Of a DNA stretch of 64,000 nucleotides, positions 2,578-29,972 are shown piece by piece. The notes below the pieces were generated by a model, which worked only from the letters and a program-made list of their open reading frames with translations, was not told where the DNA came from and made no database searches. The translations under genes and the position numbers were made by a program. Each line of letters starts with the position of its first letter. Within the stretch, counting starts at the first letter, position 1. The DNA comes from a virus. Its lineage: Duplodnaviria; Caudoviricetes. The stretch is from positions 1-64,000 of the IMG/VR virus record IMGVR_UViG_3300002839_000006; one strand, 5' to 3'.

Positions 2578-3576
2578 TTATTTATGCATAAATTTTCTAA
2601 TATAATCTCTTCCTTTTTGATCAATATTTGAAGAATTATCATGAAGATCTTGTAATTCATTTAAATCTTTATCTTTTCCTTTAGCTCTCATAATGATTTC
2701 TCTTTCTTTACCAGTTAGAGAATAATCATCAAAAAATGTATGATCAAATTTCTCTTCACTCTTATTCTCTGTATTCTTGGACTCTTCAACTTTATTTAAT
2801 CTATGAAAAATGCTTTCAAGTTCATTCTCTTCTTTCTTATCGCCCGTCCTTTTCTTTTCTGCTTTAATATTACCCTCTAAGTCAACAAAAAATTTATTTT
2901 TCTTATAGTTCAAAACTGAACCATCTGATCGATGTTTTGTTGACAATGGATTTCCGTATTCTTTTAATAAAGAAGCTATTGCAAGATTAACTAATTTATC
3001 ACTCTCATCTGATTTATTCTCGCCAACGCCCTTCTCCTTCTTATAATCAGCTTCAGTGTAGTAGTACTTGTATCCACCACCTGCTACTGGCTCTCTCTTA
3101 AAATATTTATGGTTGATTGACTTCTCAAACTTATCCAGTTCTTCTTCACCGAGATATTTACCGAATACATGTAGTGACTTCTCTATGTTCTCCATGTCTG
3201 GTTCGAACTCATCAAACGCTGATTTTTGAATAGAATCACCTCTTCGGATATGACCCTCTGCATTTTCTCTATGCATTTTAATACTCTCTTGTAATTGCTT
3301 TCTTTTTACAGGGTCGTGAGTATTCTCCAATTTGTCTTCTGCAGATCTATGTTCAAAACTATGTGCTTCAGCAGCATCTTTATGGTCTTCCTTACTATAA
3401 GTTTCATATGGCATATTATGAGACTTGGCATAAATAGGTTGACCACTCTTAGTTCTACCAATAATTTTACCCCCTCTACTGCCTTCTCCACCTTTTTCAA
3501 TTTCTGGCAGTGTAGCCTTGATGATATTAATTTTATCTCTTATTTGTTCTTCTCGTATCTTCTGTTGGAAGTCCAT
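2578..3576 (-). CDS. Putative internal head (cargo) protein, charged and modular
   Basis: IIKA, IEKG, IQKS, IEKS and FEKS motifs; GGEGSRGGKIIGRTKSGQPIY and KSINHKYFKRE..YKYYY modules; own promoter motif. Confidence 0.5.
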   Translation of the reverse strand: MDFQQKIREEQIRDKINIIKATLPEIEKGGEGSRGGKIIGRTKSGQPIYAKSHNMPYETYSKEDHKDAAEAHSFEHRSAEDKLENTHDPVKRKQLQESIKMHRENAEGHIRRGDSIQKSAFDEFEPDMENIEKSLHVFGKYLGEEELDKFEKSINHKYFKREPVAGGGYKYYYTEADYKKEKGVGENKSDESDKLVNLAIASLLKEYGNPLSTKHRSDGSVLNYKKNKFFVDLEGNIKAEKKRTGDKKEENELESIFHRLNKVEESKNTENKSEEKFDHTFFDDYSLTGKEREIIMRAKGKDKDLNELQDLHDNSSNIDQKGRDYIRKFMHK

Positions 3577-3592
3577 GGCTTTAAATTTTTGT

Positions 3593-3607
3593 TAAAATTA
3601 ATATTAA
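3593..3607 (-). promoter_or_regulatory. Recurrent promoter-like motif
   Basis: TTAATATTAATTTTA on the coding strand with TTATAAATAA upstream. Confidence 0.6.
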
Positions 3608-3652
3608 AACTGATACGAAATATTTTTATTTATTATTTATAAAGAATATAAA

Positions 3653-4444
3653 TTATAAATAGGAGTTATTAAGAATGTTAGTTCCTTCATAATTTGTAGC
3701 ACTTCCGAGTTCATATTGAGCTTTACGAGCTATAGCATGTACAGGCATTTCTTCTGTTGTTTTTTTACCAGCATTAGAATATTCTTGCGTGATTCTCAGG
3801 TCATTAGGGATGTCTATGACATGGTACGTCGTAAGATGTTTATAGGAGACTGATACCTTACCATTAAAATCGTTTGGTAAATTATCTGCTTTAATGTCTA
3901 AAACATAACCATTAGTCATGTTAATCCTATAATCGGATGCAGCTAACTTGATCAAAACATTAGTATCACCATTGAATATAAATACTGATCTTATTTCAAT
4001 CATTTTATAGGTGGAGAAAGTGAACTTGGGATATATGTCACTATCACTATCTCTCACTTTCAATACTTCACTCATCATCCCAAAATTCTTGAGTAAAGTT
4101 ATCTTATCCATAAATGACACCCTATTGACATTCATAAATGTCGTTCCCATAGTACCTATCATCTCTGGAGACCAGTCCTTATACTTCGTATTCTTATTGA
4201 TAGAGGTCAATATTGCTTTAGTATTAATAGGGTTGACAAATACCCAGCCTGTTCCCATGCAGTTACCACAAGTTGTTCTGCTATCTGAACTCTGACCCTT
4301 ACAAGGACATGCAACAGCTTCTTCTAATGAGATTTCGTATCCCCTATTCCACAGCAATTGGTTGAAGTCTCCTCTGTCAAATATATTGATCTGAGGTTCT
4401 CCAACCATGTTAGGTGGCACTTGTGTCCTGATACTTCCGCTCAT
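3653..4444 (-). CDS. Head-closure/neck protein
   Basis: ACPC...TCGNCMGTGW motif; second gene of the neck block after the capsid gene. Confidence 0.6.
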   Translation of the reverse strand: MSGSIRTQVPPNMVGEPQINIFDRGDFNQLLWNRGYEISLEEAVACPCKGQSSDSRTTCGNCMGTGWVFVNPINTKAILTSINKNTKYKDWSPEMIGTMGTTFMNVNRVSFMDKITLLKNFGMMSEVLKVRDSDSDIYPKFTFSTYKMIEIRSVFIFNGDTNVLIKLAASDYRINMTNGYVLDIKADNLPNDFNGKVSVSYKHLTTYHVIDIPNDLRITQEYSNAGKKTTEEMPVHAIARKAQYELGSATNYEGTNILNNSYL

Positions 4445-5244
4445 TATAGTGAGGATATATTTATTGACTTATAGAATAGTCTCAGTTTCTTAAGACATTC
4501 ATTGATCTCTTCTGTATACTGTTTTATACGTCCTGAGTAACCACCTGACCCAGATGACATATTTGTATTGATGGATTGTGATAAACCATCTATACCTAAC
4601 GACATTGAATTTACCCCTGGACTACCTAAAATGATATCACCCAACATGGCAAATATTGGTATAGAAGCTAACTTCCCTACTACGTTTACTAAGTCCAGTG
4701 GCACATCATCATAGTTGTAACCTGTCACATATTGTATGCTGAAGTAGTTTGGCACCTGACCATAACTAGTAAGACCTAAATAGGCAGTGATACCTGTTAA
4801 TATTATGTCAGCATTTGCCCTGCTTGTTGTAGAACCTGTAGGTATGAGGTGTATCTTCTTATAGTAGTTACCCTCGTTGTCTTTCTTTGTATTAAGCCAA
4901 TCTAAGGGGTACTTTATCTGTTCTATACCATTTAGGTAACCGATGAAAGAAAGTGGCTTAGCAACAGGCAATTTAGTGGGTAAGATAGGGAATCCACCCC
5001 AATAGTCATCCTTGAAATAGGTGACTGTCTGTTCTATGTACTTCTTGTTGAACCTGATCTCAAGGTACTTCTCAATCTCTTGCTGTGCTGCCAAGATATA
5101 CATACGCATAGAGTCGTTAGATATCTCTGAGCCATCTCTTGACTTGGTACTTATACCGTAAAAATAAAGGCTTGTTAGTTCCTCTGGTGAAATAACAAGC
5201 CCTTCATTCTTTCGATACCTAACCTGATATGTTATGGTTGGCAT
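4444..5244 (-). CDS. Head-tail adaptor (connector) protein
   Basis: YILAAQQEIEKYL, IQYVTGY..VPLDL and SMSLGIDGLSQS motifs are typical of adaptors; synteny. Confidence 0.7.
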   Translation of the reverse strand: MPTITYQVRYRKNEGLVISPEELTSLYFYGISTKSRDGSEISNDSMRMYILAAQQEIEKYLEIRFNKKYIEQTVTYFKDDYWGGFPILPTKLPVAKPLSFIGYLNGIEQIKYPLDWLNTKKDNEGNYYKKIHLIPTGSTTSRANADIILTGITAYLGLTSYGQVPNYFSIQYVTGYNYDDVPLDLVNVVGKLASIPIFAMLGDIILGSPGVNSMSLGIDGLSQSINTNMSSGSGGYSGRIKQYTEEINECLKKLRLFYKSINISSL

Positions 5245-5250
5245 GTTTTC

Positions 5251-5793: not shown

Positions 5794-5822
5794 ATAACAA
5801 AATTAAAAATGTGAATAAAAAG

Positions 5823-5877: not shown

Positions 5878-7368
5878 TTAAGCAGTGATATCTCGTCCAA
5901 TATTATGGATGATGGCGATCTTACCTGGCATATATAAAACTGGAGTACCATAATTAACTACGGCAAACCTACGAGCCAAAGTAGTGATAGCAAAGTCGAT
6001 TTTCATCGTGGCAGCTAACTGGATATATTCCCACATATCTGAATTAGGATCTAAAACAAGTGCTGAATGTGTGTTACCAATTACTCGGTTACGATCACGT
6101 ACACCATACTGAGCAGCACCATCATAACCTGAAGCAGCAGCTAATTGTGTTACTGATACTTCAAACAATGGATAATACTTAGCAGTTGTATATACAGCGA
6201 CGTTCTTCTCAGTACGATAAACAGTAAAGGAAGTAGCAGCATAAGTACCAACACCTGCAACAAATACTAAGTCAACAGATTCAGTAGCTGCGATAGCCTT
6301 GATAGTAGTGTTCATTGCACACATTGCTGATTCACCATACTGATTACGAGCAGTTACTCCATAGAAGTATCCACCTGCAGCATCAGTAAATTTGGTTGAA
6401 GTATCAGCAGAAGCGATAGTCAAACTGGTGTTATTCACAGCAGTAGGAACGGCAGGAGCCTTAGCTGAAACAGCTGCAGCATTGTATGCCTTAGGAGTTC
6501 TGCGATCGAAGAAGATATCATTGACAACATCAATTTTCCCAAACTGAGTCATGATATCATTAACCTTCTGACCCATAGTAGCTCCTTCAGTAGCTGAACT
6601 AGGTGCACCAACCATTACACGTTTGCTTTCATGGAAACGTTTTACATAGTCATTGAAAACAACAGGGTTGGAGATGATTTTGGTTGCTTCACCAAAACGA
6701 TCATTAACAACTGCCTGTACTGCATCTTCTACATGAGAATCTTTCAATGCTTTACCACGAGCATCAATGAAAGTAGGGTCGTTAGCATAAGTATCCAAAC
6801 CTGTTCCAGCAGTGATGTCAAGGACACCTGCATAATGTTGTTTGAAAATACCATCAAATTCCTGAGGAACCATAGCATTGTCAGAACCTGAAAGTTTCTG
6901 ATCCAACTGGGTTAAGAGTTTCAAGGTCTTATTTTCAACCTCACGAGTGTACGGATCTTTACCGTCAGCCTGGCGAACAAGCATTGACTGTTGTGTCAGT
7001 TCACCTTGGATACCAGCATACTTTACAAGAGCAGCCTTACGTCTGTAAACAGAGTCAGTTTGTTCTGGAGATTCACCTTCATTCATGAAGATTCCTACAT
7101 CAGCACCATAACTGGTTAATTGGTTATACTCATGTACTGTATTGTAAACACTCTTTTTAGGAAGTAATTTCCAAAGTACAATATGGTTTTCTTTATTTTC
7201 CAACACCTTTACAACTGGGTCAAGTGACTCAGGTTTCAGGGAAGGTCCAGACGATAGCGTATCTGTTAGATCGCGACCTGTCTGACTACCAGCAACGATT
7301 GCTTTGATAATATCCTCATCGGAGTAATTCTCAGCATTCTTGCCTAATGAATCATGAATGTCAAACAT
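5878..7368 (-). CDS. Major capsid protein (SPO1/Twort-like)
   Basis: SLKPESLD, VHEYNQLTSYG, EGESP and YGTPVLYMPGK motifs; N-terminal IIK|A at the position of the ALK|S processing site known for Listeria phage A511 Cps; follows protease and scaffold. Confidence 0.9.
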   Translation of the reverse strand: MFDIHDSLGKNAENYSDEDIIKAIVAGSQTGRDLTDTLSSGPSLKPESLDPVVKVLENKENHIVLWKLLPKKSVYNTVHEYNQLTSYGADVGIFMNEGESPEQTDSVYRRKAALVKYAGIQGELTQQSMLVRQADGKDPYTREVENKTLKLLTQLDQKLSGSDNAMVPQEFDGIFKQHYAGVLDITAGTGLDTYANDPTFIDARGKALKDSHVEDAVQAVVNDRFGEATKIISNPVVFNDYVKRFHESKRVMVGAPSSATEGATMGQKVNDIMTQFGKIDVVNDIFFDRRTPKAYNAAAVSAKAPAVPTAVNNTSLTIASADTSTKFTDAAGGYFYGVTARNQYGESAMCAMNTTIKAIAATESVDLVFVAGVGTYAATSFTVYRTEKNVAVYTTAKYYPLFEVSVTQLAAASGYDGAAQYGVRDRNRVIGNTHSALVLDPNSDMWEYIQLAATMKIDFAITTLARRFAVVNYGTPVLYMPGKIAIIHNIGRDITA

Positions 7369-7404: not shown

Positions 7405-8262
7405 TTACTGCTCCAGAGTAATATTTTTTCTATGTGCTAAAAGAGCAAGTGCCTTGTAGCCGTGTCCAGTAGGACGTGTATTAACTGTATAGTCTAAAAT
7501 ACCGTTTTCGATTACTTGTCTAACGTCGGCATCTTTCTCTTTATTGAGCATGTCTTCCATACCCTTTAAAATTTCATCTTTGTTACCAGAAATAGAGAGT
7601 GTTTTGTTCTCAGCATTCTCTACGTCTTCTTCATTACTCAAACTCTTTTCAAAGAAAGTAGCCTTAGTAATAACTGATTTTGTTCCCATAGGAGTGTCAC
7701 CTATCTTCTTGATCTCAGACTGTAGGCTCTTTATGATCTCGTTCTGTTCATCAAACTTATCTTCGAACTTCTCAGTGAGTGACTTTTCAATGTCCATGAA
7801 ACGTTCACCAAAGGCTTTCTCAATGTCAATGTCTACTGATTTATGAATTTCTTCTTCCTTTTTCTCTTCTGGTTTCTTCTTACCCATCTTCAGTTCCATC
7901 TCATCAATTGATTTCTCAATCTCAGCTTTCTTGGACTTCATCTCAGTAAGACATTTTTCTAAGTCTTCTTCTTTATCTTCACTCTTGACTATAGGTTTTT
8001 CTTCACCTTCTTTTTTCTCTTCAGCTTGTTCTGCAGGAGTCTCTTTTGCTTCATCAGCAGAAGTTTCATTTGCTTCGCCAGTCTTTTCAGCTTTCTCTCC
8101 CATGGTTTGTTCTGAACTAGACTCTTTCTCTTCTTTCTTTTCGACCTTCATAGCCTTTTCGATATAGGAGTTGACTTCTGTTTCTTCCATGCCAAGATCA
8201 GTCAATGACTTTCTAAGTTCATCAACTTCCTCTACAGACATTATATTAATTTGATTTTCCAT
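7405..8262 (-). CDS. Capsid scaffolding protein
   Basis: Glu/Lys-rich protein between protease and MCP, with about 10 [IF]xK[SAG] motifs. Confidence 0.75.
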   Translation of the reverse strand: MENQINIMSVEEVDELRKSLTDLGMEETEVNSYIEKAMKVEKKEEKESSSEQTMGEKAEKTGEANETSADEAKETPAEQAEEKKEGEEKPIVKSEDKEEDLEKCLTEMKSKKAEIEKSIDEMELKMGKKKPEEKKEEEIHKSVDIDIEKAFGERFMDIEKSLTEKFEDKFDEQNEIIKSLQSEIKKIGDTPMGTKSVITKATFFEKSLSNEEDVENAENKTLSISGNKDEILKGMEDMLNKEKDADVRQVIENGILDYTVNTRPTGHGYKALALLAHRKNITLEQ

Positions 8263-8345: not shown

Positions 8346-9170
8346 TTACAAAGAATTTTTAACTAATTTAATGACTTTATTTTTAAAATCACTGTCTCCA
8401 TCAAATAAACTCTTATGTTTCAATATATTATCTAATGCCTTTTTAATGTCAGGTAGGCTAATATTTTTTGGTTTCTTATCTAAACTTTCAGGTGTGAGTG
8501 GTTTTACTGCAGCTACATCCATAGATTTAGTTAATACCTCAAATACTTTATAGTCTTTACCTACCCTATACTTCTTACCTTTGTTCTCAAACTCCATAAT
8601 ATATTCTTTCTCATCTGAATCCTGATCGTAGGTAGGATCTATATAATCTTCCTTCTGAAGACCTTTAGCTATATCCGCATAAGAATTTCCGTTAACCGGG
8701 GAAAATGTTATGGCACAGTTAGTTATAAGTGCCCTGGTGATATGTTTTGGATTAGTAGTAGAACGATTCAGTGCTTTTCCTTCGATGCTCCAACCGACTT
8801 TTCTATCAGATCCAGACTCTTTCATCTCAATAATCTTATCCCAAGTGTCTCTTGCTATTTCACTGTTCTCCCATAGTTGTGCTTTTATATGGAATTCATT
8901 ATTTTTAATCTCAGCTTTAACAGGAGAGCCAATCCAGTATTTTGGGCTCCTTTTAGACAAATGTTCGTAATTTATCAGTCCATTTTTCAAAAAGTGGTCA
9001 ATCTCATATCCGTTAGGTTCTAATACTTCACCTTCTATATCTTGTGAATTATCAGAAGCCATCCCTTCAAGAAACATATTTTTATATCTATCTGATTTTG
9101 GTAATTTAGATGCTTTCTCTAATAATTCATCATTAATAGGGACAAAGAAATTAAATTTATTATCTTCCAT
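8346..9170 (-). CDS. Prohead (maturation) protease, HK97/U35-like
   Basis: LEGMASDNSQDIEGE, INYEH (His), GWSIEG (Ser) and ITFSPVN motifs. Confidence 0.88.
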   Translation of the reverse strand: MEDNKFNFFVPINDELLEKASKLPKSDRYKNMFLEGMASDNSQDIEGEVLEPNGYEIDHFLKNGLINYEHLSKRSPKYWIGSPVKAEIKNNEFHIKAQLWENSEIARDTWDKIIEMKESGSDRKVGWSIEGKALNRSTTNPKHITRALITNCAITFSPVNGNSYADIAKGLQKEDYIDPTYDQDSDEKEYIMEFENKGKKYRVGKDYKVFEVLTKSMDVAAVKPLTPESLDKKPKNISLPDIKKALDNILKHKSLFDGDSDFKNKVIKLVKNSL

Positions 9171-9182: not shown

Positions 9183-9620
9183 TTATTCACTAACGATGTT
9201 CTTCTCTAGTTTTGTATAGTACTTACTATCTTCCATCAGATGATCTTTTGTTATCTCACTTCTCTCTTCTTCATCACTCGTATGTTCTTTCTCTTCTTCC
9301 ATACCCATCTTGTACTGCTCCTGGAGTGCACTTACCTCTATGTTGTGATGTGCAGCTATATCTTCTAATGTCTTACCATCAGCTCTGCCACCGATCAACT
9401 TTTCTTTTTGTGCTTTCTGTATCTCATATCTCTCTTTTGCTGCATTGTATATCTCATCACTGATCTGATCCATTATATAGAGGTCAGATATGTGAGAGAA
9501 GGCTTTTTCTATGTCTTTTTCTTCGACAACTTCTGTCTTTGGATCGTCACTCTTTGTACTAAATCTTTTAAAGAACCCATCCAGTTCAAGAACTTGTTTT
9601 GTGTCTATCTTAGTTTTCAT
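9183..9620 (-). CDS. DUF5661-like protein, probable internal head protein
   Basis: MGMEEEKEHT...ITKDHLMEDSKYYTKL motif; IEKA and IQKA motifs. Confidence 0.6.
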   Translation of the reverse strand: MKTKIDTKQVLELDGFFKRFSTKSDDPKTEVVEEKDIEKAFSHISDLYIMDQISDEIYNAAKERYEIQKAQKEKLIGGRADGKTLEDIAAHHNIEVSALQEQYKMGMEEEKEHTSDEEERSEITKDHLMEDSKYYTKLEKNIVSE

Positions 9621-12147
9621 TCATTTCAGATATTAAGTTCTTTATAATTTCATATGTCTTAGGGAATTCTTCTTTAAGATCTTTCAAATCTCTATTATCT
9701 TCTGTATCACCTTCATCACCCAATGCCATAACGAATGCAGCAAAGGATTCACACCAATTCTCTTCTTCATCCATTTCTGCCTGATGAGATACTCTTTCTT
9801 TCGTATACCATAGATCAACCAAATTCTCAGCGGTTATTTTATCATCTCTATAGAGCTTATGTCCATATTCATGCAATATAACTTTTGTATATTGCTCTTG
9901 ACCATACCAATCTGTTGCAATTTCATCGTATAGTTGCTTATTTATACTTATTTCATTGTAGTCTTCATTAAACGCTCCGACCCAATATCCATTAGATTCT
10001 CTTTCGTATTTACTCTGATCAACCAACTGTAGTCTTGCTTTAGACAAATGACTAACGATATTTTCAGGTAGATTATTAGACAAAGCTCCAATCACCTTTA
10101 CAGAACATTGGTGACTTAACATTTCATTAGGATAATTCCTATAGAAGTTGTTGAATACGATTTTATCCTTTTTATCATAATCAATAACATAATTCTGTTT
10201 TAAATCATCTAAGAAATCTTCTTTCCGCTCAACAGCTTGGTCATTTTGATTCTCATAGTAAGTGTACACCCACTTCCCATTCTTCATCTCCTTTTTGAGA
10301 TATTTGTGATTTAATGCTTTTACTATCTCATTTACTTTCTCAGTAGGAATGATACCGAGTTGAATGGCTTTTTTGATGTGTTCTGACACTTTAAACTTCT
10401 CATGCCAGTATCTATCATTTCTTTCTTTATATTCGTTAACATTCCAATCAATATTGAAATATTTGTTGACTACTTCTTCAATATCATCTAATGCAGTCTT
10501 ACCAAATGACTTCTTTATAAATCCTGTTATAATATTTTTAAGTTCAGAGAATATACTTTTCTTCTCAGTAGGAGTTTCACTATCTGAAGGTATTGTCTGT
10601 AAAAATTCTGCAAATTCTTTATTAGTAAATGCATATGTAATTAACTCTTCAAGATCATCTGCTTTTATCTTTCCAGATTCATCATTATAAAAATCTGGTA
10701 TTTTATGCTGTATTGAAACATCAAATATATATGAAATTATGTGTTTTACGCTGTCTGATGCAGAATCAAAATTAGCAAGTATCTTTCTTGCTATAGGAAA
10801 CAATTCACTGTGTAGATTATATGAATTTACCCCAATACCTTTGGAAATAATGCCATGGAGAGTCTCATGGTTAATAGTCTCAGTAAAACTAGACCTATCT
10901 TCATAAAGTTTTGTTATGTATGGGTCAAAATTCATTTGATTATACTGCCAACATGCAGCAGCTCCATACCTAACAGACCCCTTTTCTACATTTACATGTA
11001 CCCCAACACTTGAAGCAAGTTCATATAGATTCTTATATCTCTCAATATCTTCTTTTGGTAATACTTTTGCTACAAACTCAGATATGTTAGCTTGATTGTT
11101 ATTCTTTCTTTCTGAAAACTGATTTAACTTCTCAACTATAGTTTCTTTAAAGTCTTCTACTTTCTCTTTCTTATTCTTCTTCTCTTCATAAATATACCCC
11201 CACTTACTATCTTTGAACTCTTTTCTAATGTATTTATGATTCAGAGCTTTTTGTAATACATCTTCTCCACATATACCTAATCTTACTGCCTTCTGTATTA
11301 TCTTTACTTGTGGATCAAAATCCCAACCCATCATCTGAACGACATTGTCACGCATATTGAAAATCATGGGGTAGTTACTTAGTTCTTCCCGTGGCACCCA
11401 TAAATAGTCTCTTGTCTCAGCTTCATCCAATAATATCTCTATATTGTCAATTGATTGAATGTTCAGTACATAGTAATAAATACATGCATTCTCATCTTCA
11501 AATATACCTAGATGTTTCCAATAGATGCCATTCAACTTATCATCTTGTAGGAGCATGTCGGCGTCTATCCCTGTTTCTTCTCTCAGTTCTCTCTTAGCTG
11601 CATCTTCAAACTCTTCACCTTCGTCCACATGTCCACCTGGTATCACCCAAGCTCCTTTGTGGTTGTCTTCCCACTGACTTCTTTTTGTTAATAGGATTTC
11701 ATTCTTATTGTTGATGACTATTACATCTGAATATTTAGTCTGCCCTTTCTCTGTTTGCTGAGCAGCAGCCTTGTTATAATCTTCCAATGTTAACTTACCT
11801 GATCTGTATAGTGATTTAATGATTCTAACTGCCTTAGACCGATTATCTTTATTTAGGTGATGGATTATATCACTATTGCTCTTTAATATGTCTAACTCCT
11901 TTAGAAACGTTTTCTCTTGTAGTTTAATCTTGGCCAGTTCTCTTGTGAACTTCTTATTGTCAAAGTGAACATCTTCTTTACAATTGAATTCTTCTGATGA
12001 CAGTGCCTTACTTATATCTTGATACTGGTCAATCAGTAAGTCTTTTACAGAATCAATCTTTTTTAGTTCAAACTCAATAACTGCTATACGAGAAAGTTTC
12101 TCATCAGTTGTCTTAAAATAGTTTGATATGTTCTGTAGTAATCCCAT
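9610..12147 (-). CDS. Multidomain protein: Nudix hydrolase plus two zincin (HExxH) metallopeptidase-like domains
   Basis: Nudix box GGHVDEGEEFEDAAKRELREETGI; INHETLH..EELITYAFTN and ILHEYGH..ENWCESF; duplicated KALNHKY linker. Confidence 0.8.
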   Translation of the reverse strand: MGLLQNISNYFKTTDEKLSRIAVIEFELKKIDSVKDLLIDQYQDISKALSSEEFNCKEDVHFDNKKFTRELAKIKLQEKTFLKELDILKSNSDIIHHLNKDNRSKAVRIIKSLYRSGKLTLEDYNKAAAQQTEKGQTKYSDVIVINNKNEILLTKRSQWEDNHKGAWVIPGGHVDEGEEFEDAAKRELREETGIDADMLLQDDKLNGIYWKHLGIFEDENACIYYYVLNIQSIDNIEILLDEAETRDYLWVPREELSNYPMIFNMRDNVVQMMGWDFDPQVKIIQKAVRLGICGEDVLQKALNHKYIRKEFKDSKWGYIYEEKKNKKEKVEDFKETIVEKLNQFSERKNNNQANISEFVAKVLPKEDIERYKNLYELASSVGVHVNVEKGSVRYGAAACWQYNQMNFDPYITKLYEDRSSFTETINHETLHGIISKGIGVNSYNLHSELFPIARKILANFDSASDSVKHIISYIFDVSIQHKIPDFYNDESGKIKADDLEELITYAFTNKEFAEFLQTIPSDSETPTEKKSIFSELKNIITGFIKKSFGKTALDDIEEVVNKYFNIDWNVNEYKERNDRYWHEKFKVSEHIKKAIQLGIIPTEKVNEIVKALNHKYLKKEMKNGKWVYTYYENQNDQAVERKEDFLDDLKQNYVIDYDKKDKIVFNNFYRNYPNEMLSHQCSVKVIGALSNNLPENIVSHLSKARLQLVDQSKYERESNGYWVGAFNEDYNEISINKQLYDEIATDWYGQEQYTKVILHEYGHKLYRDDKITAENLVDLWYTKERVSHQAEMDEEENWCESFAAFVMALGDEGDTEDNRDLKDLKEEFPKTYEIIKNLISEMNEN

Positions 12148-12186: not shown

Positions 12187-12942
12187 CTATACCAAAAATT
12201 CTTTATCTTTAAACTTACAATTTTCAAAGTGAAAACGATGCATGGCATTAATTCCTCCAATCTTACCACAATGAGGACACATAACCTTTTCCCTGGGTTT
12301 TCTCATTTTAGTTAATTGTTCTTCATTAAAACCAACTATTTCATACCACAATTTTATCTTTTCTTTAGATTCGTCTTTGTGAGTTTTATCTTTCATAGGG
12401 CTTATTCTACCTTTTTGACCCTCTGAGTTCTTTCTTCTCCACTCTTCACTTTGGCCACCGTTTATTTCATAATACCTTTTATGACTATCCCTCATATTCT
12501 GCAAAGATTCTTCTGAATAAATTCCTGTTTTACCTTTATTCCAAGCTATTCTTCCTTTCCCTCCTTTTGATACATTGTCTTTATGTTCCTGAGTTAATTT
12601 CTTACCTGTTAATGCTAAAGATATTTTTCTTAACCACTCTTCTGTAAAAACAGGAATATAGCCTTTATTTCCTTGACCACCTGCAGTAATATTATAAAAA
12701 GTTTCTAAATTAACCGCATCAAATTCTTTTATGATAGCTTCTTCTCTAGAATATGCTTCCAAATGAGTATCACAATATTCTAATATCTCCCTTTTAAAAT
12801 TTTTACGACCATACTTTTTAATTGCTTTCTCTAATACTAAACCCGACCCTAAATAGCCATCATTCAAATTTTTAGTAGTATGCTTACCTATATAAGCCTT
12901 ATCATTAACAAGATTAGTAGTAATATAAACAAAATGTATCAT
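12187..12942 (-). mobile_element. Free-standing GIY-YIG homing endonuclease with NUMOD3-like repeats and C-terminal Zn finger
   Basis: FVYITTNLVNDKAYIGKH; H..E.K..IS repeats; CPHCG...HFENCK. Confidence 0.85.
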
Positions 12943-13853
12943 ACTTCAAAAGTTTTATCCCCAACCGTTATTTTTATTTTAGACGTTCTAATTACTTTTC
13001 TCTCCCTATCTAAACTATATTCAAATCTATTTGTATCTTTATTCCACTTTTGACCAGCAAAAATAGGTTGTATATCACACCTACAATAAGGGTGATTTGT
13101 TCCTAAAACCGCTTTCCAATCGTCTACTTTCCTCCCTATATTTGTTCCATTCTGAATTAATGTAGACAACTTAAAAATAATAGGTTCACTCCCTACCCCT
13201 TGAGTTAAATGTAATTTAAGACAATGGCGACAGGCTGAATCAAAAGTATGTTTCCAACACAATGCTTCATCTCCATACTTCCTTATTATTTCAGATGCCC
13301 TACCCTGTTCATATATGTTCTGCATCTCAGTCACAACTATTCTCTTCCAGTCTCTATCCCACTCACCAGTTCTATGACCTAAATCACTTACTACTGAAGC
13401 TATGCTTTTCCTGTTCTTAATGCCTTCTGAGATTGTTTCTGATATGATATTCTTCTTATTCTCCTCAAGCATTATATCTCTGGTAGCACCAACTACTTTG
13501 TTTGCAAGTCCCTTCAGATGATTATAGGTGATTTCCCTGCTTATCTTATACTCTGCTCTTTCTCTTTCTGATAGTGGTATAAATTGTCCCCTATCCAAAT
13601 ATTTCTCAAAATCTTCATTGGTTAACTCTTTTGTCTGTTTCTCTTCTAATACCGCAGTTAACCTCCCGAGCAGAAAGTTCCTCATAAATGGTGGATATTG
13701 TTCTTCTAACTTCTCAATATCTATACCATAGTTTGTCAGAAACAGTTTATCTTCATCAGATAACACTTCTGTCCCCAGTGATGTGAATATCATAAAAGAA
13801 TAGTGATGTTGGATTATATCTACTATTCTCTGTATATCTGTTGTACTGAACAT
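12939..13853 (-). CDS. MuF/SPP1-gp7-like minor head (morphogenesis) protein
   Basis: DWKRIVVTEM, ACRHCLKLH and HPYCRC motifs. Confidence 0.8.
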   Translation of the reverse strand: MFSTTDIQRIVDIIQHHYSFMIFTSLGTEVLSDEDKLFLTNYGIDIEKLEEQYPPFMRNFLLGRLTAVLEEKQTKELTNEDFEKYLDRGQFIPLSERERAEYKISREITYNHLKGLANKVVGATRDIMLEENKKNIISETISEGIKNRKSIASVVSDLGHRTGEWDRDWKRIVVTEMQNIYEQGRASEIIRKYGDEALCWKHTFDSACRHCLKLHLTQGVGSEPIIFKLSTLIQNGTNIGRKVDDWKAVLGTNHPYCRCDIQPIFAGQKWNKDTNRFEYSLDRERKVIRTSKIKITVGDKTFEV

Positions 13854-25799: not shown

Positions 25800-26597
25800 T
25801 TATTTGTTATTCACAGTATGACCTCTAACTTCTGATCTTTTAGAATCTTCATGTTGAGAAATATCTTCTGAAGTTATACCACCATATTCATTTCCATTTC
25901 TTTTAGATTTTATTCTGTATATAAAATCACCATCTTTAGTCTCAGTAACTTTTGTGACAGTACCCTTTAGATCAACCCCATTTGATTTAAATGATACTAC
26001 ATTATCAATTTCATATTCTGCCTTCTTAGCTTTCTTCTCAACAGGTTTCTCTTCTTTCTTTTTCTCACTGCTTGTTCCAGCTGTTGGACCTTCTGTAGGT
26101 TCTGTCACTTTACTTTTATCTTTATTATCCCAAGTTGACATTTTATCTTTCTCACCTTCTGGTGCCTTGAATGTGTCCTGTGCTTCCTCTGACTTCCTAC
26201 GCTGTAGTTCTTTATGTGCTGCCTCTCTTACTGCAGGATCAGTAGATACCTTAGTAGCATTCATTAGGGCTGCCTCGGATGCCGTCTTAGCAGCTGTCCC
26301 CAGATCTTGTGGTTGTGCTGTAGCTTTACCCTGTTCAGCTCTCTTATCAAGTGCTGCTTTAGCTTCTGGGTTCTCAGGTTTACCTGGTGCATCGCCACTT
26401 TTTACTGGCACCCATCCTGTAGCTTCTTTTCTCATTTTAACACCACTCCACTCCCTTATCTCACCCATCTGAGCTAATTTGCCTTTTATAATGTCCTCTT
26501 TCATTTCATTGAATGTAGGTGCAAGATTTTTCTTAATTTGATCTTCTTGTTGTTGTTGTCCTTTTCTTATTTCGTCTTGGATATTCATTTTAATCAA
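25800..26597 (-). CDS. Putative internal head (cargo) protein
   Basis: IRKG and IIKG motifs followed by KLAQMGEIREWSGVKMRKEATGW; low complexity and charged; coupled to portal. Confidence 0.5.
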   Translation of the reverse strand: MIKMNIQDEIRKGQQQQEDQIKKNLAPTFNEMKEDIIKGKLAQMGEIREWSGVKMRKEATGWVPVKSGDAPGKPENPEAKAALDKRAEQGKATAQPQDLGTAAKTASEAALMNATKVSTDPAVREAAHKELQRRKSEEAQDTFKAPEGEKDKMSTWDNKDKSKVTEPTEGPTAGTSSEKKKEEKPVEKKAKKAEYEIDNVVSFKSNGVDLKGTVTKVTETKDGDFIYRIKSKRNGNEYGGITSEDISQHEDSKRSEVRGHTVNNK

Positions 26598-28287
26598 TAT
26601 TTACGTTTTCTTCGATATATTTTAGACACTGCATAGTCAATGGATCGTCTTTACTCATCAGTGACTTCTTGAATGCCTGTGCTGGTGCACCTGATTGATC
26701 TTCCTGGTTGAACTTATCAAATGGATTTTGAGCACCTGCTTCTGGTTCACCTGTCATCTCATCTACTGCCTCGTTACTTCCCTGCCCACCCATCATCTTC
26801 ATTTGTTGTGCCTGTAGATAAACTGGATTCAATATAGTGTCAGTCTTTTCATTGAAAGGTCTTCCCATCTCAGCTTCAAATGCTGCTTCAAATGGCATCT
26901 GACCTGAAGCTATCTTCTTAGCTATAAGGTCAACCAACTCCATCTCGTCCTGTGTATCAATACCAGTAAACACCAATTCATAGTCTGAATCTATCTCTGA
27001 TACCAACCACTTGGTCAATACCTTTTCCCAGAATAGGAGTATTGGCTTCAACCCTTTCTTTTTACTATGCTGTATTCTTTCTTTCTGTCCTGCCTGACCA
27101 AATAACTGTGCTGACTTCTGGAACTGATAACCTAACTCTGAAGGATCAATAGTGAATACTGAGCATAACATAATAATAAGAAATTCCATCCATTGTTGGA
27201 ACTCCATATCCTTATTTGTTCCCTGTAAATCTATCCATTCTAAGTCTATCCCACTGAAGATCGGTAATTTATGAGAATTTCCGACACCAGCTATCATCTG
27301 TCTCCATGTCTGTCTAAAATCATTCAGAACATCCATATTGACACCACCATCCTTAATATTTATGAATCCCTTAGGGTTACTACCCTGCTTAAAGAAGTTA
27401 CCGTTGTATTGCATTCCCCACAACGACCAAGTGATAATATCCAGCAGCACCTCTACCTCAGATGTACCATATCCATTCTTATCAATAGATGTGGCTTTAT
27501 TGCGTTGAGCATACATCAGCTCCCAAGGATAGTAAACTATCTCCTGTTTGGTTACTGGGTTGACCATCACGTTGCTCTGGTATACCTGAGCGTACCGTGG
27601 ATACTGGCCAAACTGTTCTGTATACTTCTGCTTAGTCTGCTCTCTGAAACGTGGATCTATCGTCTCTAATATCCTTATAGTTGAAGCATCTATTGCTGTG
27701 TGTCCTATTAATTCAAATCTTCTGTTACGTTCACATTCAGCTGCCAACTGGTCATAGGTCATTGAATCTCTTAATGCTTTGCGGGTGAAATCTGCTAAGT
27801 CATCAGTAGTATCCCATTTACCTTTTAGTCCACCATTCTCTAAATAGTTGACTATATATTCTATTTTCTTCTTGTCTTCCCTGTTTTCTTTTTGTTTCCC
27901 AGTATCAAAAATAGATCTCTTCTTACGTATAGTATATCCCTCTGATTTATTGTCATTGGTGAAACGTAGGAAGTTCTGTACCTGGAATATTCTTGTATTT
28001 ATGATAGACCCTACAATAGGTGTATCACCTACCTTCTTCAATACATCAAATGATACTCGCTTCCGTTGTTGCTTATACCCATTAGTTGAATAGTAAGCTT
28101 CAAAAGGATCGAATACGAATGACTTGATGTCCTTCTTCTTTTTATTCTTTTCTAACTCCTGTAGATAATTTTGAGCCTTGTAGATGTCATTAACATCAGT
28201 TGACATTAACTGCTTCTCCAGAAGGAGACTTTTCTCTATCTGGAGCTTAGCAGTTTGTTCGTCTATTTGTTCTATTTCTCTATTCAT
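26590..28287 (-). CDS. Portal protein
   Basis: IDASTIR, GYGTSEVE, NFFKQGSNPKG, KDMEFQQWMEFL..DPSELG and GLKPIL motifs. Confidence 0.9.
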   Translation of the reverse strand: MNREIEQIDEQTAKLQIEKSLLLEKQLMSTDVNDIYKAQNYLQELEKNKKKKDIKSFVFDPFEAYYSTNGYKQQRKRVSFDVLKKVGDTPIVGSIINTRIFQVQNFLRFTNDNKSEGYTIRKKRSIFDTGKQKENREDKKKIEYIVNYLENGGLKGKWDTTDDLADFTRKALRDSMTYDQLAAECERNRRFELIGHTAIDASTIRILETIDPRFREQTKQKYTEQFGQYPRYAQVYQSNVMVNPVTKQEIVYYPWELMYAQRNKATSIDKNGYGTSEVEVLLDIITWSLWGMQYNGNFFKQGSNPKGFINIKDGGVNMDVLNDFRQTWRQMIAGVGNSHKLPIFSGIDLEWIDLQGTNKDMEFQQWMEFLIIMLCSVFTIDPSELGYQFQKSAQLFGQAGQKERIQHSKKKGLKPILLFWEKVLTKWLVSEIDSDYELVFTGIDTQDEMELVDLIAKKIASGQMPFEAAFEAEMGRPFNEKTDTILNPVYLQAQQMKMMGGQGSNEAVDEMTGEPEAGAQNPFDKFNQEDQSGAPAQAFKKSLMSKDDPLTMQCLKYIEENVNID

Positions 28288-28344
28288 AATCTATCGATAT
28301 CACTGACCATTCCTTCCTCGAAACTCGAAATTAGTGATATTCTT

Positions 28345-28896
28345 TTACGATGCTAATACAGTTACTGTGACTACATAACTCTTAGCTGCACCATTTGTTC
28401 CAGTCAATGCATAAGTTACTGGACTTGTGAAGTTGTTTGCAGTAGAAGCTGATGTTTGAGTGTCATTACCTATTTTAACAGTTGTGTTGGCTGTCTTAGT
28501 AAACGTTGCTATCAATGATGCTGGATTAGTTCCAAAAGGTACACTCAATGTAATAGTGCCTGCAGCTTGATCAATTACAATTGCTGTTGCTGAAGGTAAT
28601 GTGAATGTCAATAACTGGATAGCAAGGTTATCTACAACTGCAGCTGCTCTGTCTGTGTAGGAAGTCAGTGTCAGGTTTAATGCTACTGCTTTTGCTTTGA
28701 ACAGAGTTACTGTTGATTCCAGATAATCATGGAATAATCCTATTGCTTGTCCTGCTGAAAGTAGTCCTGGAGTTACTACTCCTGCTACTTCTGATTTAAT
28801 CTCATTAATAAATAGGCGATCATTTGTACTGATGCCATTTGTCAAATAGGAAACTTTGAAGCTCTTGTCTATTGGACTAAATACGTATTGTTTCAT
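28345..28896 (-). CDS. Ig-like (DUF5018/cadherin-like) domain protein, head-decoration candidate
   Basis: ITLSVPFGTN..LIATFT...NNFTSPVTY..TGTNG..KSYVVTV. Confidence 0.65.
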   Translation of the reverse strand: MKQYVFSPIDKSFKVSYLTNGISTNDRLFINEIKSEVAGVVTPGLLSAGQAIGLFHDYLESTVTLFKAKAVALNLTLTSYTDRAAAVVDNLAIQLLTFTLPSATAIVIDQAAGTITLSVPFGTNPASLIATFTKTANTTVKIGNDTQTSASTANNFTSPVTYALTGTNGAAKSYVVTVTVLAS

Positions 28897-28937
28897 TGTT
28901 TATATGTCTTTTAAATTATTGGTTGCGGAATTATTCT

Positions 28938-29972
28938 TTACTCGTCTGAAATACCTTTATCAAAGCCCTCTTTCTCTAAATCTTCCCAACTTTTAAATAT
29001 AACAGGAGCACCTCTATTTGCTCTAAAATTTGCTCCGTCTTCATCCACACTTCTTACTTCATACTCTTTACCATCTTTATCAACAATAAAATCTCCAGCT
29101 TCAACATCGTCTAATTTATTGGTTGGATTTGTTTCTTTTTTATTTTCTACAGCATATAAATCATCATCGTCTCCAGAAGGAACTCTTCTCTCATCTTTTT
29201 TATCTTCTTTCTTAGTCCCAAACTTCTGCCCTACTCTCCCCAACTTCATATTCTCAGGAGTGTTCATGTAGGTTCCGCCTCTTGACTTCTGGATCTCTCC
29301 CTCCTTTGGTTCATCCCAAAGTATCTGAGCAGCCCTTACAAACATAAAGTCTTCTTGTAGATGACCCCCTGCATTAGCTGAGATAACTTTAATAGGTGAG
29401 AAAGATTTGATTTCATCAGCTACTGCCTTCATGATCTTATCTTTGTTCATAGCTTTATTATTATAGCCATGTTTTGCGTTAAAATTCTTCACATTAGCGC
29501 TATGCTCTTCAGATAATGCATCAAGCTCTTTTCTAAGAAGAACTTTCTTAGATTCTTCTGGTTCTGCTTTGATCTTATCTAAAACAACTCTTCTTTTTGC
29601 TTCGTGTTCTGTATTCAGCTTCTCGCCTTCACTAGCGTACTTGTCTCTATCACTTACTGCATCAAGTTCATCTTTATCTTTAGTCTTATTAGCTTTTACT
29701 TCAACCCAATCTTTATGGGAATTTCCTGTCTCAGACACTTTTCGCCAGATCACTCCCGAAGGCGAAGTGTGAATAGTTCCAATAGGGGATTTCTTGCCCT
29801 TTTCGATATCATTATCCAAACTCTTTGTGATCTCGTTCATGTTCTCCTCAGCAAATAGCTTTACTTGTTCGTAGGTGAATGCTTCTACCTCATTGAGTTT
29901 GATCTTTCTGTCAAGATCGTCTTTATGGATTGTTTCCATTAAATTGTCTGTTATTGAATTAACAAAATACAT
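28938..29972 (-). CDS. Putative internal head (cargo) protein, modular
   Basis: ITKS, IEKG, IMKA and IQKS motifs; GKKSPIGTI..W and SRGGTYMNTPENMKLGRVGQ modules. Confidence 0.5.
   Translation of the reverse strand: MYFVNSITDNLMETIHKDDLDRKIKLNEVEAFTYEQVKLFAEENMNEITKSLDNDIEKGKKSPIGTIHTSPSGVIWRKVSETGNSHKDWVEVKANKTKDKDELDAVSDRDKYASEGEKLNTEHEAKRRVVLDKIKAEPEESKKVLLRKELDALSEEHSANVKNFNAKHGYNNKAMNKDKIMKAVADEIKSFSPIKVISANAGGHLQEDFMFVRAAQILWDEPKEGEIQKSRGGTYMNTPENMKLGRVGQKFGTKKEDKKDERRVPSGDDDDLYAVENKKETNPTNKLDDVEAGDFIVDKDGKEYEVRSVDEDGANFRANRGAPVIFKSWEDLEKEGFDKGISDE

What the first reader, a model, noticed from the sequence alone, without database searches (positions are those of the whole stretch)
2578..29972. 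Recurring [ILFV]-x-K|[ASG] motif: probable prohead-protease code marking a family of head-cargo proteins
Seen: the MCP has IIK|A at residues 20-23. The scaffold has IEKA, IVKS, IEKS, IHKS, IEKA, IEKS, IIKS, ITKA, FEKS and ILKG. The protease has LEKA, IAKG, LTKS and IKKA, and the portal N-terminus has IEKS and IYKA. The same motif recurs in 2578..3576, 9183..9620, 9610..12147, 25800..26597, 28938..29972 and 48707..49672, usually at domain boundaries. Established: Listeria phage A511 capsid protein is cleaved at ALK|S, and T4 gp21 and phiKZ gp175 process many internal head proteins at short motifs. Inference: these ORFs are co-packaged proteins cut into mature pieces inside the prohead and possibly ejected into the host. 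The motif would then predict the cargo set genome-wide.
Basis: partly seen in the sequence, partly recalled or inferred. Interest (0 to 1): 0.8.

Follow-up and report, generated by a model that had tools for sequence, protein, structure and literature searches.

The report
Head-protease cut-site code in uncultured phage
A short amino-acid signal, most likely the cutting site of this phage's head-maturation protease, marks the capsid, scaffold, portal and about eight extra proteins that are probably packed into the head, so it may predict which proteins the phage carries into its host.

Summary
The motif is real and far above chance, but narrower than written. In this genome it is [D/E/N]-I-x-K|[A/S/G]; L, V, F and M at the first position are at expectation.

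- **Enrichment:** I-x-K-[ASG] occurs 45 times against 7.0 expected in 12 proteins. It occurs 26 against 24.4 in the other 95 proteins, and 8 against 7.5 in nine replication proteins.
- **Controls:** reversed, shifted, Arg/Glu-for-Lys and non-small-P1' versions are all at expectation.
- **Known sites:** the capsid site EDIIK|A aligns with the annotated Listeria phage A511 site EDALK|S. HK97 cuts at K103|S104.
- **Protease:** it is a distant HK97 gp4-like serine protease with invariant His70 and Ser128. Of 150 representative homologues, 132 are enriched in hydrophobic-x-K-[ASG].
- **Conservation:** motif positions are kept in orthologues while the flanks drift. A second 94-kb genome gives the same protein set.
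- **Substrates:** in the Nudix-zincin-zincin polyvalent protein and its orthologues the sites flank domains. A five-member family carries an N-terminal leader ending in the motif.

Best reading (about 0.7): a prohead-protease code that processes packaged cargo, working like T4 gp21 or phiKZ/SPN3US but with an S78-like enzyme. Cleavage, packaging and ejection are untested. The scan's earlier notes e1-5939285 and e1-5931890, on this same genome, had already flagged the leader family and the polyprotein.

The parts
8346..9170 (-). Prohead serine protease (274 aa), a distant HK97 gp4-like enzyme. Predicted self-cut sites are AD-IAK|G (K169, end of the catalytic domain) and PD-IKK|A (K244).
   Evidence: It matches phrog_1028 'head maturation protease' at E 7e-38. 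H70, S128, E130 and G131 are invariant and K169 is at least 90% conserved in 76 homologues. Three of the 76 homologues match PF04586 Peptidase_S78. hhalign to HK97 gp4 gives E 4.4e-4 and probability 34%.
7405..8262 (-). Scaffold protein (285 aa) with 9 I-x-K|[ASG] sites plus LRK|S and FEK|S. Cutting at the 9 I-type sites would give pieces of 8-57 aa.
   Evidence: It has 9 sites against 0.49 expected, with 0 of 5000 shuffles reaching that count. Six motif columns are kept in 8 of 8 distinct orthologues while the flanks vary. It aligns to the C-terminal half of a protease fusion, P0082, at E 4e-10.
5878..7368 (-). Major capsid protein (496 aa) with a predicted 22-residue propeptide removed at EDIIK|A (nt 7300..7311).
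   Evidence: It matches phrog_752 at E 1e-62. [DE]-[ILV]-x-K-A sits at the same column in 13 of 13 sequences, down to 33% identity. The site aligns to A511 EDALK|S, where the annotated mature peptide starts at residue 24.
9610..12147 (-). Polyvalent protein (845 aa): leader, Nudix, linker, HExxH zincin, related linker, HExxH zincin. It has 8 I-type sites, with K at residues 47, 89, 111, 286, 436, 546, 593 and 610.
   Evidence: PF00293 NUDIX covers residues 141-260 at E 5e-23, with a weak SprT-like match. It has 8 sites against 1.08 expected. Orthologues carry Kinase-PolyVal, GNAT, DUF5661, DUF3626, ART or DUF6496 after the same leader, Nudix and linker. The sites flank those domains.
9183..9620 (-). 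DUF5661 protein (145 aa) with sites KD-IEK|A (K39) and YE-IQK|A (K69). In relatives this domain is part of the polyvalent protein.
   Evidence: PF18905 matches at E 1.5e-11. The domain is fused inside the polyvalent proteins of L006 and L007, with a site on each side of it.
2578..3576 (-). 332-aa protein of unknown function after the head-tail genes, with 4 I-type sites (K20, K28, K118, K133) plus FEK|S at 150.
   Evidence: It has 4 sites against 0.53 expected, with 7 of 5000 shuffles reaching that count. Its orthologue in the second genome has 7 against 0.55 and a DUF6496 domain.
26590..28287 (-). Portal protein (565 aa) with a predicted N-terminal trim at ND-IYK|A (K37) and a possible C-terminal trim at FKK|S (residue 539).
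   Evidence: PF04860 matches at E 1e-20. The I-x-K|A-Q site is kept in 11 of 12 aligned portals. A hydrophobic-x-K|S about 25 aa from the C-terminus is kept in 8 of 12. The first site, IEK|S, is not conserved.
25800..26597 (-). Leader-family member (265 aa) just after the portal gene, with sites DE-IRK|G (K12) and ED-IIK|G (K38) ahead of a conserved module.
   Evidence: The family alignments are. Both sites are kept in the orthologues that follow the portal in relatives.
28938..29972 (-). Leader-family member (344 aa) upstream of the portal gene, with 5 I-type sites (K50, K58, K182, K229, K327).
   Evidence: It has 5 sites against 0.44 expected, with 0 of 5000 shuffles reaching that count. Orthologues at the same position are enriched, for example 6 against 0.69.
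48707..49672 (-). Leader-family member (321 aa) with an HExxH payload, lying among replication genes. It has 3 I-type sites, none with D/E/N at P4. This is the weakest candidate.
   Evidence: It has 3 sites against 0.61 expected, with 122 of 5000 shuffles reaching that count. It shares the leader and the module that starts after IEK|G.

Best explanation
The motif is the recognition site of the phage's own prohead serine protease (8346..9170). This is a distant HK97 gp4-like enzyme that cuts after Lys in [D/E/N]-I-x-K|[S/A/G], often followed by a hydrophobic residue.

Inferred course of events:
1. The scaffold, the protease and the cargo precursors assemble inside the prohead.
2. The protease removes the 22-residue capsid propeptide.
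3. It chops the scaffold into pieces of 57 aa or less, which can leave the shell.
4. It frees itself from its C-terminal tail at K169 and K244.
5. It trims the portal N-terminus at K37.
6. It removes the N-terminal leaders of a five-member protein family.
7. It cuts the Nudix-zincin-zincin polyvalent protein at its linkers into separate domains.
8. The mature pieces stay in the head with the DNA and probably enter the host with it.

Shown here: non-random, protein-specific, conserved motif placement; homology of the capsid site to a known cleavage site; the kinship of the protease. Inferred: that cutting happens at these sites, that the non-structural proteins are packaged, and that they are ejected.
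For: Specificity.
- I-x-K-[ASG] counts are 26 against 2.5 in four proteins and 19 against 4.5 in eight more, but 26 against 24.4 in the other 95 proteins.
- Seven control patterns are at expectation: reversed, R or E at P1, non-small P1', and three shifted spacings.
- With D/E/N at P4, 28 of the genome's 30 hits fall in the 12 proteins.
- Sites use varied codons, so this is not a DNA repeat.
- An I-type site lies within the first 60 aa in 11 of 12 candidates against 6 of 67 other proteins.

Known cleavage sites.
- The MCP site aligns with the annotated A511 site.
- HK97 cuts at K103/S104 (passage read in PMC10275583). Its delta domain holds five x-x-K|[AS].
- Phage phi12 also has K or R at P1 (passage read in PMC8569155).

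Protease.
- H70 and S128 are invariant.
- There are links to PF04586 and to HK97 gp4.
- The 150 representatives of 1,254 homologues hold 1,878 hydrophobic-x-K-[ASG] against 396 expected and 586 reversed. Of these, 132 of 150 have P<0.01.
- An unbiased K-centred profile gives I/L/M at -2 and A/S/G at +1.

Conservation and replication.
- See the scaffold, portal and family alignments.
- In the second genome the strict motif occurs 26 times against 7.3 expected, with 22 of them in six orthologous head proteins.
- Parts of 26 polyvalent homologues that do not align to the query hold 73 against 23.6.
- Sites flank the Nudix, DUF5661 and kinase domains.

Precedent. In SPN3US, 14 sites in 9 substrates were found, including the portal, a C-terminal protease propeptide and multi-cut propeptides (passages read in PMC10052503).
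Against: - There are no protein-level data of any kind for this phage.
- The 12-protein set was partly chosen by motif count, so its raw enrichment is circular. The P4 preference, the N-terminal bias, the second genome and the homology to known sites are the independent parts.
- Homologues are related to each other, so the family-wide P values overstate independence. The reversed control among the 150 proteases is itself 1.5 times expectation.
- MCP, portal, protease, 25800..26597, 9183..9620 and 48707..49672 are not individually significant.
- The window's protease does not itself reach any Pfam family at E 0.01, and the hhalign probability to HK97 gp4 is only 34%.
- The A511 scaffold gp85 shows no enrichment (2 against 1.43), so a dense scaffold motif is not universal among relatives.
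- Three family members lie among replication genes rather than in the head module.
Confidence: 0.7

Rival explanations
1. The motif is a binding signal rather than a cut site. It would be a short linear motif by which scaffold, portal, protease tail and cargo dock onto the scaffold core or the capsid interior, with cleavage only at the capsid N-terminus.
For: The repeated D-I-E-K-S units in the scaffold have variable copy number, which could be interaction repeats. Leaders of the family are conserved as a whole, not only at the motif. T4 capsid-targeting sequences act by binding (recalled).
Against: The same motif sits exactly at the position of a known cleavage in A511 and resembles HK97 K103|S104. 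The strict need for a small residue after Lys is typical of a scissile bond. Sites lie at domain junctions and near chain ends rather than on one surface. Binding and cutting are not mutually exclusive.
Confidence: 0.12
2. The polyvalent protein is processed by its own zincin-like metallopeptidase domains, as Iyer et al. 2017 proposed for polyvalent proteins. On this view the I-x-K motif in it is unrelated to the prohead protease.
For: There are two HExxH domains in 9610..12147 and one in 48707..49672. The abstract and passages of PMC5512222 propose zincin-mediated processing.
Against: The orthologues in L006 and L007 have no HExxH, and L003's single HExxH lies within its GNAT match at 358-419; all three keep the same sites around the Nudix and DUF5661 domains. 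The same motif is in the scaffold, MCP, portal and protease, which have no zincin. One I-type site lies directly after the first HExxH, inside the domain.
Confidence: 0.08
3. The enrichment is a by-product of Lys/Glu/Ile-rich helical or low-complexity sequence, internal duplication, or recombination-cassette junctions, with no role for the motif itself.
For: The scaffold is highly charged and has duplicated units such as FGERF-x-D-I-E-K-S. Domains are shuffled among orthologues.
Against: Expectations use each protein's own composition, and the reversed, shifted and substituted patterns are at expectation in the same proteins. Motif columns are conserved while flanks drift. Codons differ between sites. 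The motif recurs in unrelated proteins and in parts of homologues that do not align.
Confidence: 0.05

Closest known systems
HK97 gp4 prohead protease and gp5 delta-domain removal (MEROPS S78, Pfam PF04586)
   Same: It is a serine protease gene next to the capsid gene, with His and Ser aligned. It cuts after Lys before Ser (K103/S104). There are several x-x-K|[AS] sites in the part that is removed, and a hydrophobic-x-K|S just after the catalytic domain in both proteases.
   Different: Sequence similarity is only remote: hhalign E 4.4e-4 and probability 34%, and no Pfam hit for the window's protein. HK97 has its scaffold fused to the capsid protein and no known packaged cargo. Here the scaffold is separate, and about eight non-structural proteins carry the motif.
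Listeria phage A511 (Herelleviridae) capsid protein processing
   Same: The capsid protein (phrog_752) and the protease are homologous. The cut site EDALK|S aligns with EDIIK|A, giving propeptides of 23 and 22 residues.
   Different: A511 has Ala at P3. Its scaffold-position protein gp85 is not enriched in the motif. No cargo set marked by the motif is known for A511.
T4 gp21 with internal proteins IPI-III and Alt (capsid-targeting sequences)
   Same: It works alike. One short motif is shared by the capsid protein, the scaffold core, the protease itself and packaged proteins that have N-terminal leaders removed in the prohead and are later injected (recalled; reviewed in PMC9026906, seen in a search listing only).
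   Different: T4 cuts after Glu in L/I-x-E (recalled), with a protease of a different family. T4 cargo proteins are small single-domain proteins, not multi-domain polyvalent proteins.
phiKZ gp175 / SPN3US gp245 and their ejection proteins
   Same: There are many substrates, including the portal. The protease loses a C-terminal propeptide, long propeptides are cut several times, and Ser is preferred at P1' (passages of PMC10052503).
   Different: Those enzymes cut after Glu (one search gives X at P2 and the P4 Val/Ala and P1' Ser preferences; the small-residue-x-Glu form is recalled) and belong to giant phages of 240-280 kb. Here the contig is 82 kb (the same protein also occurs on a 114-kb contig), the enzyme is S78-like and P1 is Lys.
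Polyvalent proteins of phages and conjugative elements (Iyer et al. 2017, PMC5512222)
   Same: It is a multi-domain effector protein in the virion gene module. Orthologues carry PF18762 Kinase-PolyVal, GNAT and ART domains. It is predicted to be packaged and injected.
   Different: That paper proposes zincin-mediated self-processing. Here the domain junctions carry the prohead-protease motif, including in orthologues without any zincin.

Membership tests
HK97-like prohead serine protease (Pfam PF04586 Peptidase_S78) | Significant match to the family profile | tested here: inconclusive
   The window's protein has no Pfam hit at E 0.01. Three of 76 homologues match PF04586, best E 2.2e-7. hhalign of the 76-sequence profile to HK97 gp4 gives E 4.4e-4 and probability 34% over 133 columns. 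phrog_1028 'head maturation protease' matches at E 7e-38.
HK97-like prohead serine protease (Pfam PF04586 Peptidase_S78) | Conserved catalytic His and Ser | tested here: met
   H70 and S128 are invariant in 76 sequences. They align to the FFNH and GMS/FS positions of HK97 gp4. That these are the catalytic His65 and Ser114 of gp4 is recalled, not taken from a call.
HK97-like prohead serine protease (Pfam PF04586 Peptidase_S78) | Gene placed just upstream of the scaffold and major capsid genes | tested here: met
   The order on the minus strand is protease 8346..9170, scaffold 7405..8262, MCP 5878..7368. The order is the same in 9 related loci.
HK97-like prohead serine protease (Pfam PF04586 Peptidase_S78) | Herpesvirus-assemblin-like fold and measured proteolytic activity | not testable with these tools
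A profile search of PDB sequences gave no relevant hit.
Protease-coded head maturation with packaged cargo (T4 gp21 / phiKZ gp175 type) | One short motif shared by capsid protein, scaffold, protease and non-structural head proteins, and absent in excess elsewhere | tested here: met
   The counts are 45 against 7.0 in 12 proteins and 26 against 24.4 in the other 95. This was replicated in a second genome.
Protease-coded head maturation with packaged cargo (T4 gp21 / phiKZ gp175 type) | Cargo proteins carry N-terminal leaders that end at the motif | tested here: met
   Five family members plus orthologues have leaders of 23-58 aa ending in I-x-K|[GA] before a conserved module. The polyvalent protein has a leader with sites at K47, K89 and K111 ahead of the Nudix domain.
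Protease-coded head maturation with packaged cargo (T4 gp21 / phiKZ gp175 type) | Protease of the gp21 or gp175 lineage cutting after Glu | tested here: not met
   P1 is Lys, and I-x-E-[ASG] is at or below expectation (0 against 2.55 in the top four proteins). The enzyme is linked to S78 instead. So it works like these systems but is not a member of their protease families.
Protease-coded head maturation with packaged cargo (T4 gp21 / phiKZ gp175 type) | Cleavage and presence of the products in virions shown by protein analysis | not testable with these tools
   No proteomic data are reachable, and the phage is uncultured.
Polyvalent proteins (Iyer et al. 2017) | Several unrelated effector-type domains in one polypeptide, with variable architectures among relatives | tested here: met
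   The window's protein has a Nudix domain plus two HExxH regions. The 26 homologues share only the N-terminal 8-49% and carry Kinase-PolyVal, ART, DUF5661, DUF6496 or topoisomerase-like domains. L003 has Nudix, GNAT and Kinase-PolyVal.
Polyvalent proteins (Iyer et al. 2017) | Encoded in the virion module near MuF-like and portal genes | tested here: met
   A MuF-like minor head protein (phrog_115, 12939..13853) lies upstream and the protease lies downstream.
Polyvalent proteins (Iyer et al. 2017) | Packaged in the head and delivered to the host | not testable with these tools
   This is inference only.

The most novel reading that the evidence does not exclude
In a large clade of uncultured phages (1,254 homologues of this protease in the representative library), an S78-like prohead protease acts as a polyprotein-processing enzyme. 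It releases the separate effector domains of polyvalent proteins and strips leaders from a polymorphic cargo family. If so, a four-to-five-residue code after Lys would predict each phage's ejected-protein arsenal from sequence alone. The zincin domains of these polyvalent proteins would then be payload, not the processing enzyme.
Probability: 0.45. Interest if true: 0.7.

Novelty: new variant of a known kind. Interest (0 to 1): 0.58.

Why it matters
Packaged and ejected phage proteins act first in infection: anti-defence, host takeover, nucleotide signalling. They are very hard to recognise in uncultured phages.

If the code holds, it gives a sequence-only way to list them in this lineage, whose relatives infect Bacteroides and Chryseobacterium. 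It also gives a concrete, testable answer to how polyvalent proteins are cut into working domains. The 2017 survey left that question with a different prediction, zincin self-processing.

The family-wide signal also suggests a general specificity rule, hydrophobic-x-Lys|small, for a large branch of HK97-like maturation proteases.

Tried and rejected
Searches that led nowhere:
- The head module has no near-identical DNA in the phage collection.
- A profile search of PDB sequences with the protease alignment gave only a chance hit.
- The ESM Atlas gave no usable relative for 28938..29972. Its own model is poor (pLDDT 0.51).
- A word-index search with the first 75 residues of 80183..81694 found only itself. 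I used family members from loci already fetched instead.

Literature. Six searches (to find the polyvalent paper) turned up no published consensus of the form hydrophobic-x-K|small for HK97-like or SPO1-like proteases. They also turned up no proposal that prohead proteases process polyvalent proteins. The library lacks most subscription journals, and supplements were not opened, so this is not proof of absence.

Explanations rejected:
- A DNA-repeat origin, because codons differ between sites.
- A composition artefact, because the control patterns are at expectation.
- The broad [ILFV] class for this genome. A wider hydrophobic class does hold in more distant relatives.

A de novo scan of all 8,000 gapped tripeptides ranked IxKA 2nd, IxKS 5th and IxKG 10th, but none passes Bonferroni alone.

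Full report
**What the window is**

The window is the first 64,000 bases of a single 81,702-base viral contig, with almost all genes on the minus strand. The polyvalent protein and a leader-family protein (80183..81694) also occur, letter for letter, on a contig of 114,111 bases, so the record is probably a fragment.

The head genes are clear:
- the major capsid protein (MCP, 5878..7368) matches phrog_752 at E 1e-62
- the protease (8346..9170) matches phrog_1028 at E 7e-38
- the portal (26590..28287) matches PF04860
- a MuF-like minor head protein lies at 12939..13853

The ORF between protease and MCP (7405..8262) has no family hit. It is highly charged, sits in the scaffold position, and aligns to the C-terminal half of protease fusions in relatives (E 4e-10). 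Everything from about 30 kb onward is replication and nucleotide metabolism: RNR, GroEL, helicase, ligase, SbcCD and DNA polymerase.

The nearest named relatives by MCP are unannotated human-faecal phage records (49-50% identity), Bacteroides phages DAC19 and kin (34%) and Chryseobacterium phage MA9V-3 (33%). Bacillus SPO1-like phages follow at about 30%.

**The observation**

I called 107 proteins on the contig (24,812 aa) and computed, for each, the number of motifs expected from its own composition.
- The broad motif [ILFV]-x-K-[ASG] occurs 142 times against 99 expected.
- I-x-K-[ASG] occurs 71 times against 31.
- The excess is concentrated. The scaffold has 9 against 0.49, ORF 9610..12147 has 8 against 1.08, ORF 28938..29972 has 5 against 0.44, and ORF 2578..3576 has 4 against 0.53.
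- Eight further proteins together have 19 against 4.5.
- The remaining 95 proteins have 26 against 24.4.

Controls in the same proteins are all at expectation. These were the reversed motif, Arg or Glu in place of Lys, a non-small residue after Lys, and three shifted spacings. So are L, V, F and M at the first position.

The context shows an extra preference for D, E or N just before the Ile. It applies to 28 of 45 sites in the 12 proteins against 2 of 26 elsewhere, with a background of 0.20 (Fisher P 4.6e-6). With that residue included, 28 of the 30 hits in the genome fall in the 12 proteins.

A blind scan of all 8,000 gapped tripeptides ranks IxKA, IxKS and IxKG 2nd, 5th and 10th, although none alone survives correction. 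Sites use different codons, so this is a protein-level signal.

One caution applies. The 12-protein set was partly picked by motif count. Six of the ten listed ORFs are not individually significant. Out of 5000 shuffles, those reaching the observed count were 116 for 9183..9620, 122 for 48707..49672, 284 for 25800..26597, 419 for the protease, 575 for the portal and 1631 for the MCP.

**Link to known cleavage**

The MCP has exactly one site, EDIIK|A at residues 18-23. In 13 of 13 aligned MCPs, down to 33% identity, the same column reads [DE]-[ILV]-x-K-A. The sequence before it is variable and the sequence after it is conserved.

The GenBank record of Listeria phage A511 annotates the mature capsid protein from residue 24, after EDALK. 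In a pairwise alignment that site falls on the window's site.

HK97 cuts its capsid protein at K103/S104 (passage read in PMC10275583). Its 103-residue delta domain holds five x-x-K|[AS] sites, including that one. Staphylococcal phage phi12 also has K or R at P1 (passage in PMC8569155).

**The protease**

- H70, S128, E130 and G131 are invariant in 76 homologues.
- Three of those 76 match Pfam Peptidase_S78, and one matches the P2 gpO family.
- A profile comparison with HK97 gp4 aligns the whole catalytic domain (E 4.4e-4, probability 34%). H70 and S128 fall on the His and Ser motifs of gp4, and D-I-A-K|G falls on A-A-M-K|S just after the domain.
- K169 of that site is kept in at least 90% of the 76 sequences.

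An exhaustive search found 1,254 homologues. In the 150 representatives listed, hydrophobic-x-K-[ASG] occurs 1,878 times against 396 expected and 586 for the reversed control. Of these, 132 of 150 are individually enriched at P<0.01. A profile centred on every Lys, with no motif assumed, gives I/L/M two residues before and A/S/G just after. Half of the representatives (75 of 150) are 450 aa or longer, which is fusion length; three of them align to this scaffold in their C-terminal part. The Chryseobacterium phage fusion has 21 sites. The representatives are related to one another, so these numbers overstate independence.

**Conservation**

- **Scaffold:** in eight distinct orthologues (33-54% identity), six motif columns are kept in 8 of 8 while the flanks and the number of D-I-E-K-S units vary.
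- **Portal:** the I-x-K|A-Q site near residue 37 is kept in 11 of 12. A hydrophobic-x-K|S about 25 residues from the C-terminus is kept in 8 of 12.
- **Second genome:** I fetched a related contig whole (94,009 bases; MCP 77% and scaffold 44% identical). It holds 26 strict motifs against 7.3 expected. Of these, 22 are in six proteins: protease, scaffold, MCP, the orthologue of 2578..3576 and two leader-family members. That contig starts inside the protease gene and so lacks the polyvalent gene; its portal gene, near the other end, carries no strict-motif hit.

**The non-structural candidates**

ORF 9610..12147 has a Nudix domain (E 5e-23) and two HExxH regions.
- Its 26 homologues share only the N-terminal leader, the Nudix domain and a linker. 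After that they carry Kinase-PolyVal, ART, DUF5661, DUF6496 or other domains.
- One orthologue has Nudix, GNAT and Kinase-PolyVal.
- It is therefore a polyvalent protein in the sense of Iyer et al. 2017 (PMC5512222; abstract and passages read).
- The sites flank the domains. There is one just before Nudix and two in the conserved linker after it, whatever domain follows. There is one on each side of DUF5661 in two orthologues, and two after the kinase.
- A few sites lie inside domains and are probably not cut, for example directly after the first HExxH and inside the GNAT domain.
- In the parts of the homologues that do not align to the window's protein (17,211 aa), the motif occurs 73 times against 23.6 expected, with 29 for the reversed control.
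- The small DUF5661 ORF 9183..9620 is a fused domain of the polyvalent protein in relatives.

Five proteins share a leader and then a conserved module that begins straight after D-I-E-K|[GA]. They are 25800..26597, 28938..29972 and 48707..49672, plus 78080..79339 and 80183..81694, which lie beyond the window.
- In 13 of the 14 related loci a family member is seen on one or both sides of the portal gene, and they keep these sites.
- Their payloads differ: a zincin, DUF3626 and small beta-barrel-like ends.
- DUF3626 also occurs inside a polyvalent orthologue, so payloads move between the two kinds of protein.
- An I-type site lies in the first 60 residues of 11 of 12 candidates against 6 of 67 other proteins of 100 aa or more.

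**How it most likely works**

The protease cuts after Lys in [D/E/N]-I-x-K|[S/A/G]. Its predicted actions are:
- removing the 22-residue MCP propeptide
- reducing the scaffold to pieces of 8-57 residues
- detaching its own C-terminal tail
- trimming the portal
- removing cargo leaders
- separating the domains of the polyvalent protein

This is the pattern measured in SPN3US: 14 sites in 9 substrates, including the portal and a C-terminal protease propeptide, multi-cut propeptides and Ser at P1' (passages of PMC10052503). It is also the pattern known for T4 (recalled). The difference here is an S78-like enzyme and Lys at P1. That the cut pieces stay in the head and enter the host is inference from those systems and from the nature of the domains.

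**Rivals**

- A docking motif is possible, and it is compatible with cutting. It does not explain the match to known scissile bonds or the small-P1' rule.
- Zincin self-processing, the published prediction for polyvalent proteins, does not explain the same sites in two orthologues without any HExxH and a third with only a chance one, or in the scaffold, MCP and portal.
- Composition or repeat artefacts are excluded by the controls.

**Novelty**

The principle is known from T4 and from phiKZ/SPN3US. New here are this lineage and its Lys-type code, the family-wide signal in a large branch of HK97-like proteases, and the placement of the code at the domain junctions of polyvalent proteins. My searches found no paper stating these points. 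The library lacks most subscription journals, and supplements were not opened.

Two earlier notes of this scan, on this same genome, had already flagged the five-member family (e1-5939285) and the Nudix-zincin-zincin protein (e1-5931890). I had seen both independently before that look-up.

**Limits**

There are no protein data. The weakest candidate is 48707..49672.

Noticed in passing
window 12187..12942 (-): A GIY-YIG plus NUMOD3 homing-endonuclease-like gene sits between the MuF-like head gene and the polyvalent gene. It has only a weak match in one of the related loci, so it looks like a mobile insertion.
   Followed up: no
L033:3280-5412 and L037:3890-6127 (portal orthologues): Two related portals are 710 and 745 aa instead of about 565. 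They carry an extra 130-160 residues inserted at about residue 338 of the window's portal. This may be an intein or another mobile insert.
   Followed up: no
window 8346..9170 (-), residue K19: The Lys of the N-terminal L-E-K|A in the protease is invariant in 76 homologues. It may be structural or catalytic rather than a cut site. HK97 gp4 has no small residue after the corresponding region.
   Followed up: partly
window 9610..12147 (aa 301 and 611), 2578..3576 (aa 153), 28938..29972 (aa 230): Short conserved modules begin straight after a predicted cut site. A 'NHKY-hydrophobic-basic-basic-E ... aromatic-x-Y-x-Y' module occurs three times. An 'R-x-G-x-Y-x-x-T-P-E-N-x-K-L-G-R' module also occurs in relatives. 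No Pfam family covers them.
   Followed up: partly
protease homologues (alignment A3), L019:6355-7473, P0017/P0020/P0025: DUF6496 (PF20106) is fused to the protease in 4 of 76 homologues. It also occurs in the orthologue of 2578..3576 and in three polyvalent homologues. It looks like another head-associated cargo module.
   Followed up: partly
window 44979..46589 (-): The phage encodes a full-length GroEL-like chaperonin (phrog_5725, E 2e-163).
   Followed up: no
whole contig: The polyvalent protein and the 80183..81694 protein occur letter for letter on a contig of 114,111 bases. The 81.7-kb record is therefore probably incomplete. No tail sheath or tube gene was seen among the ORFs scanned against PHROGs and Pfam.
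   Followed up: no
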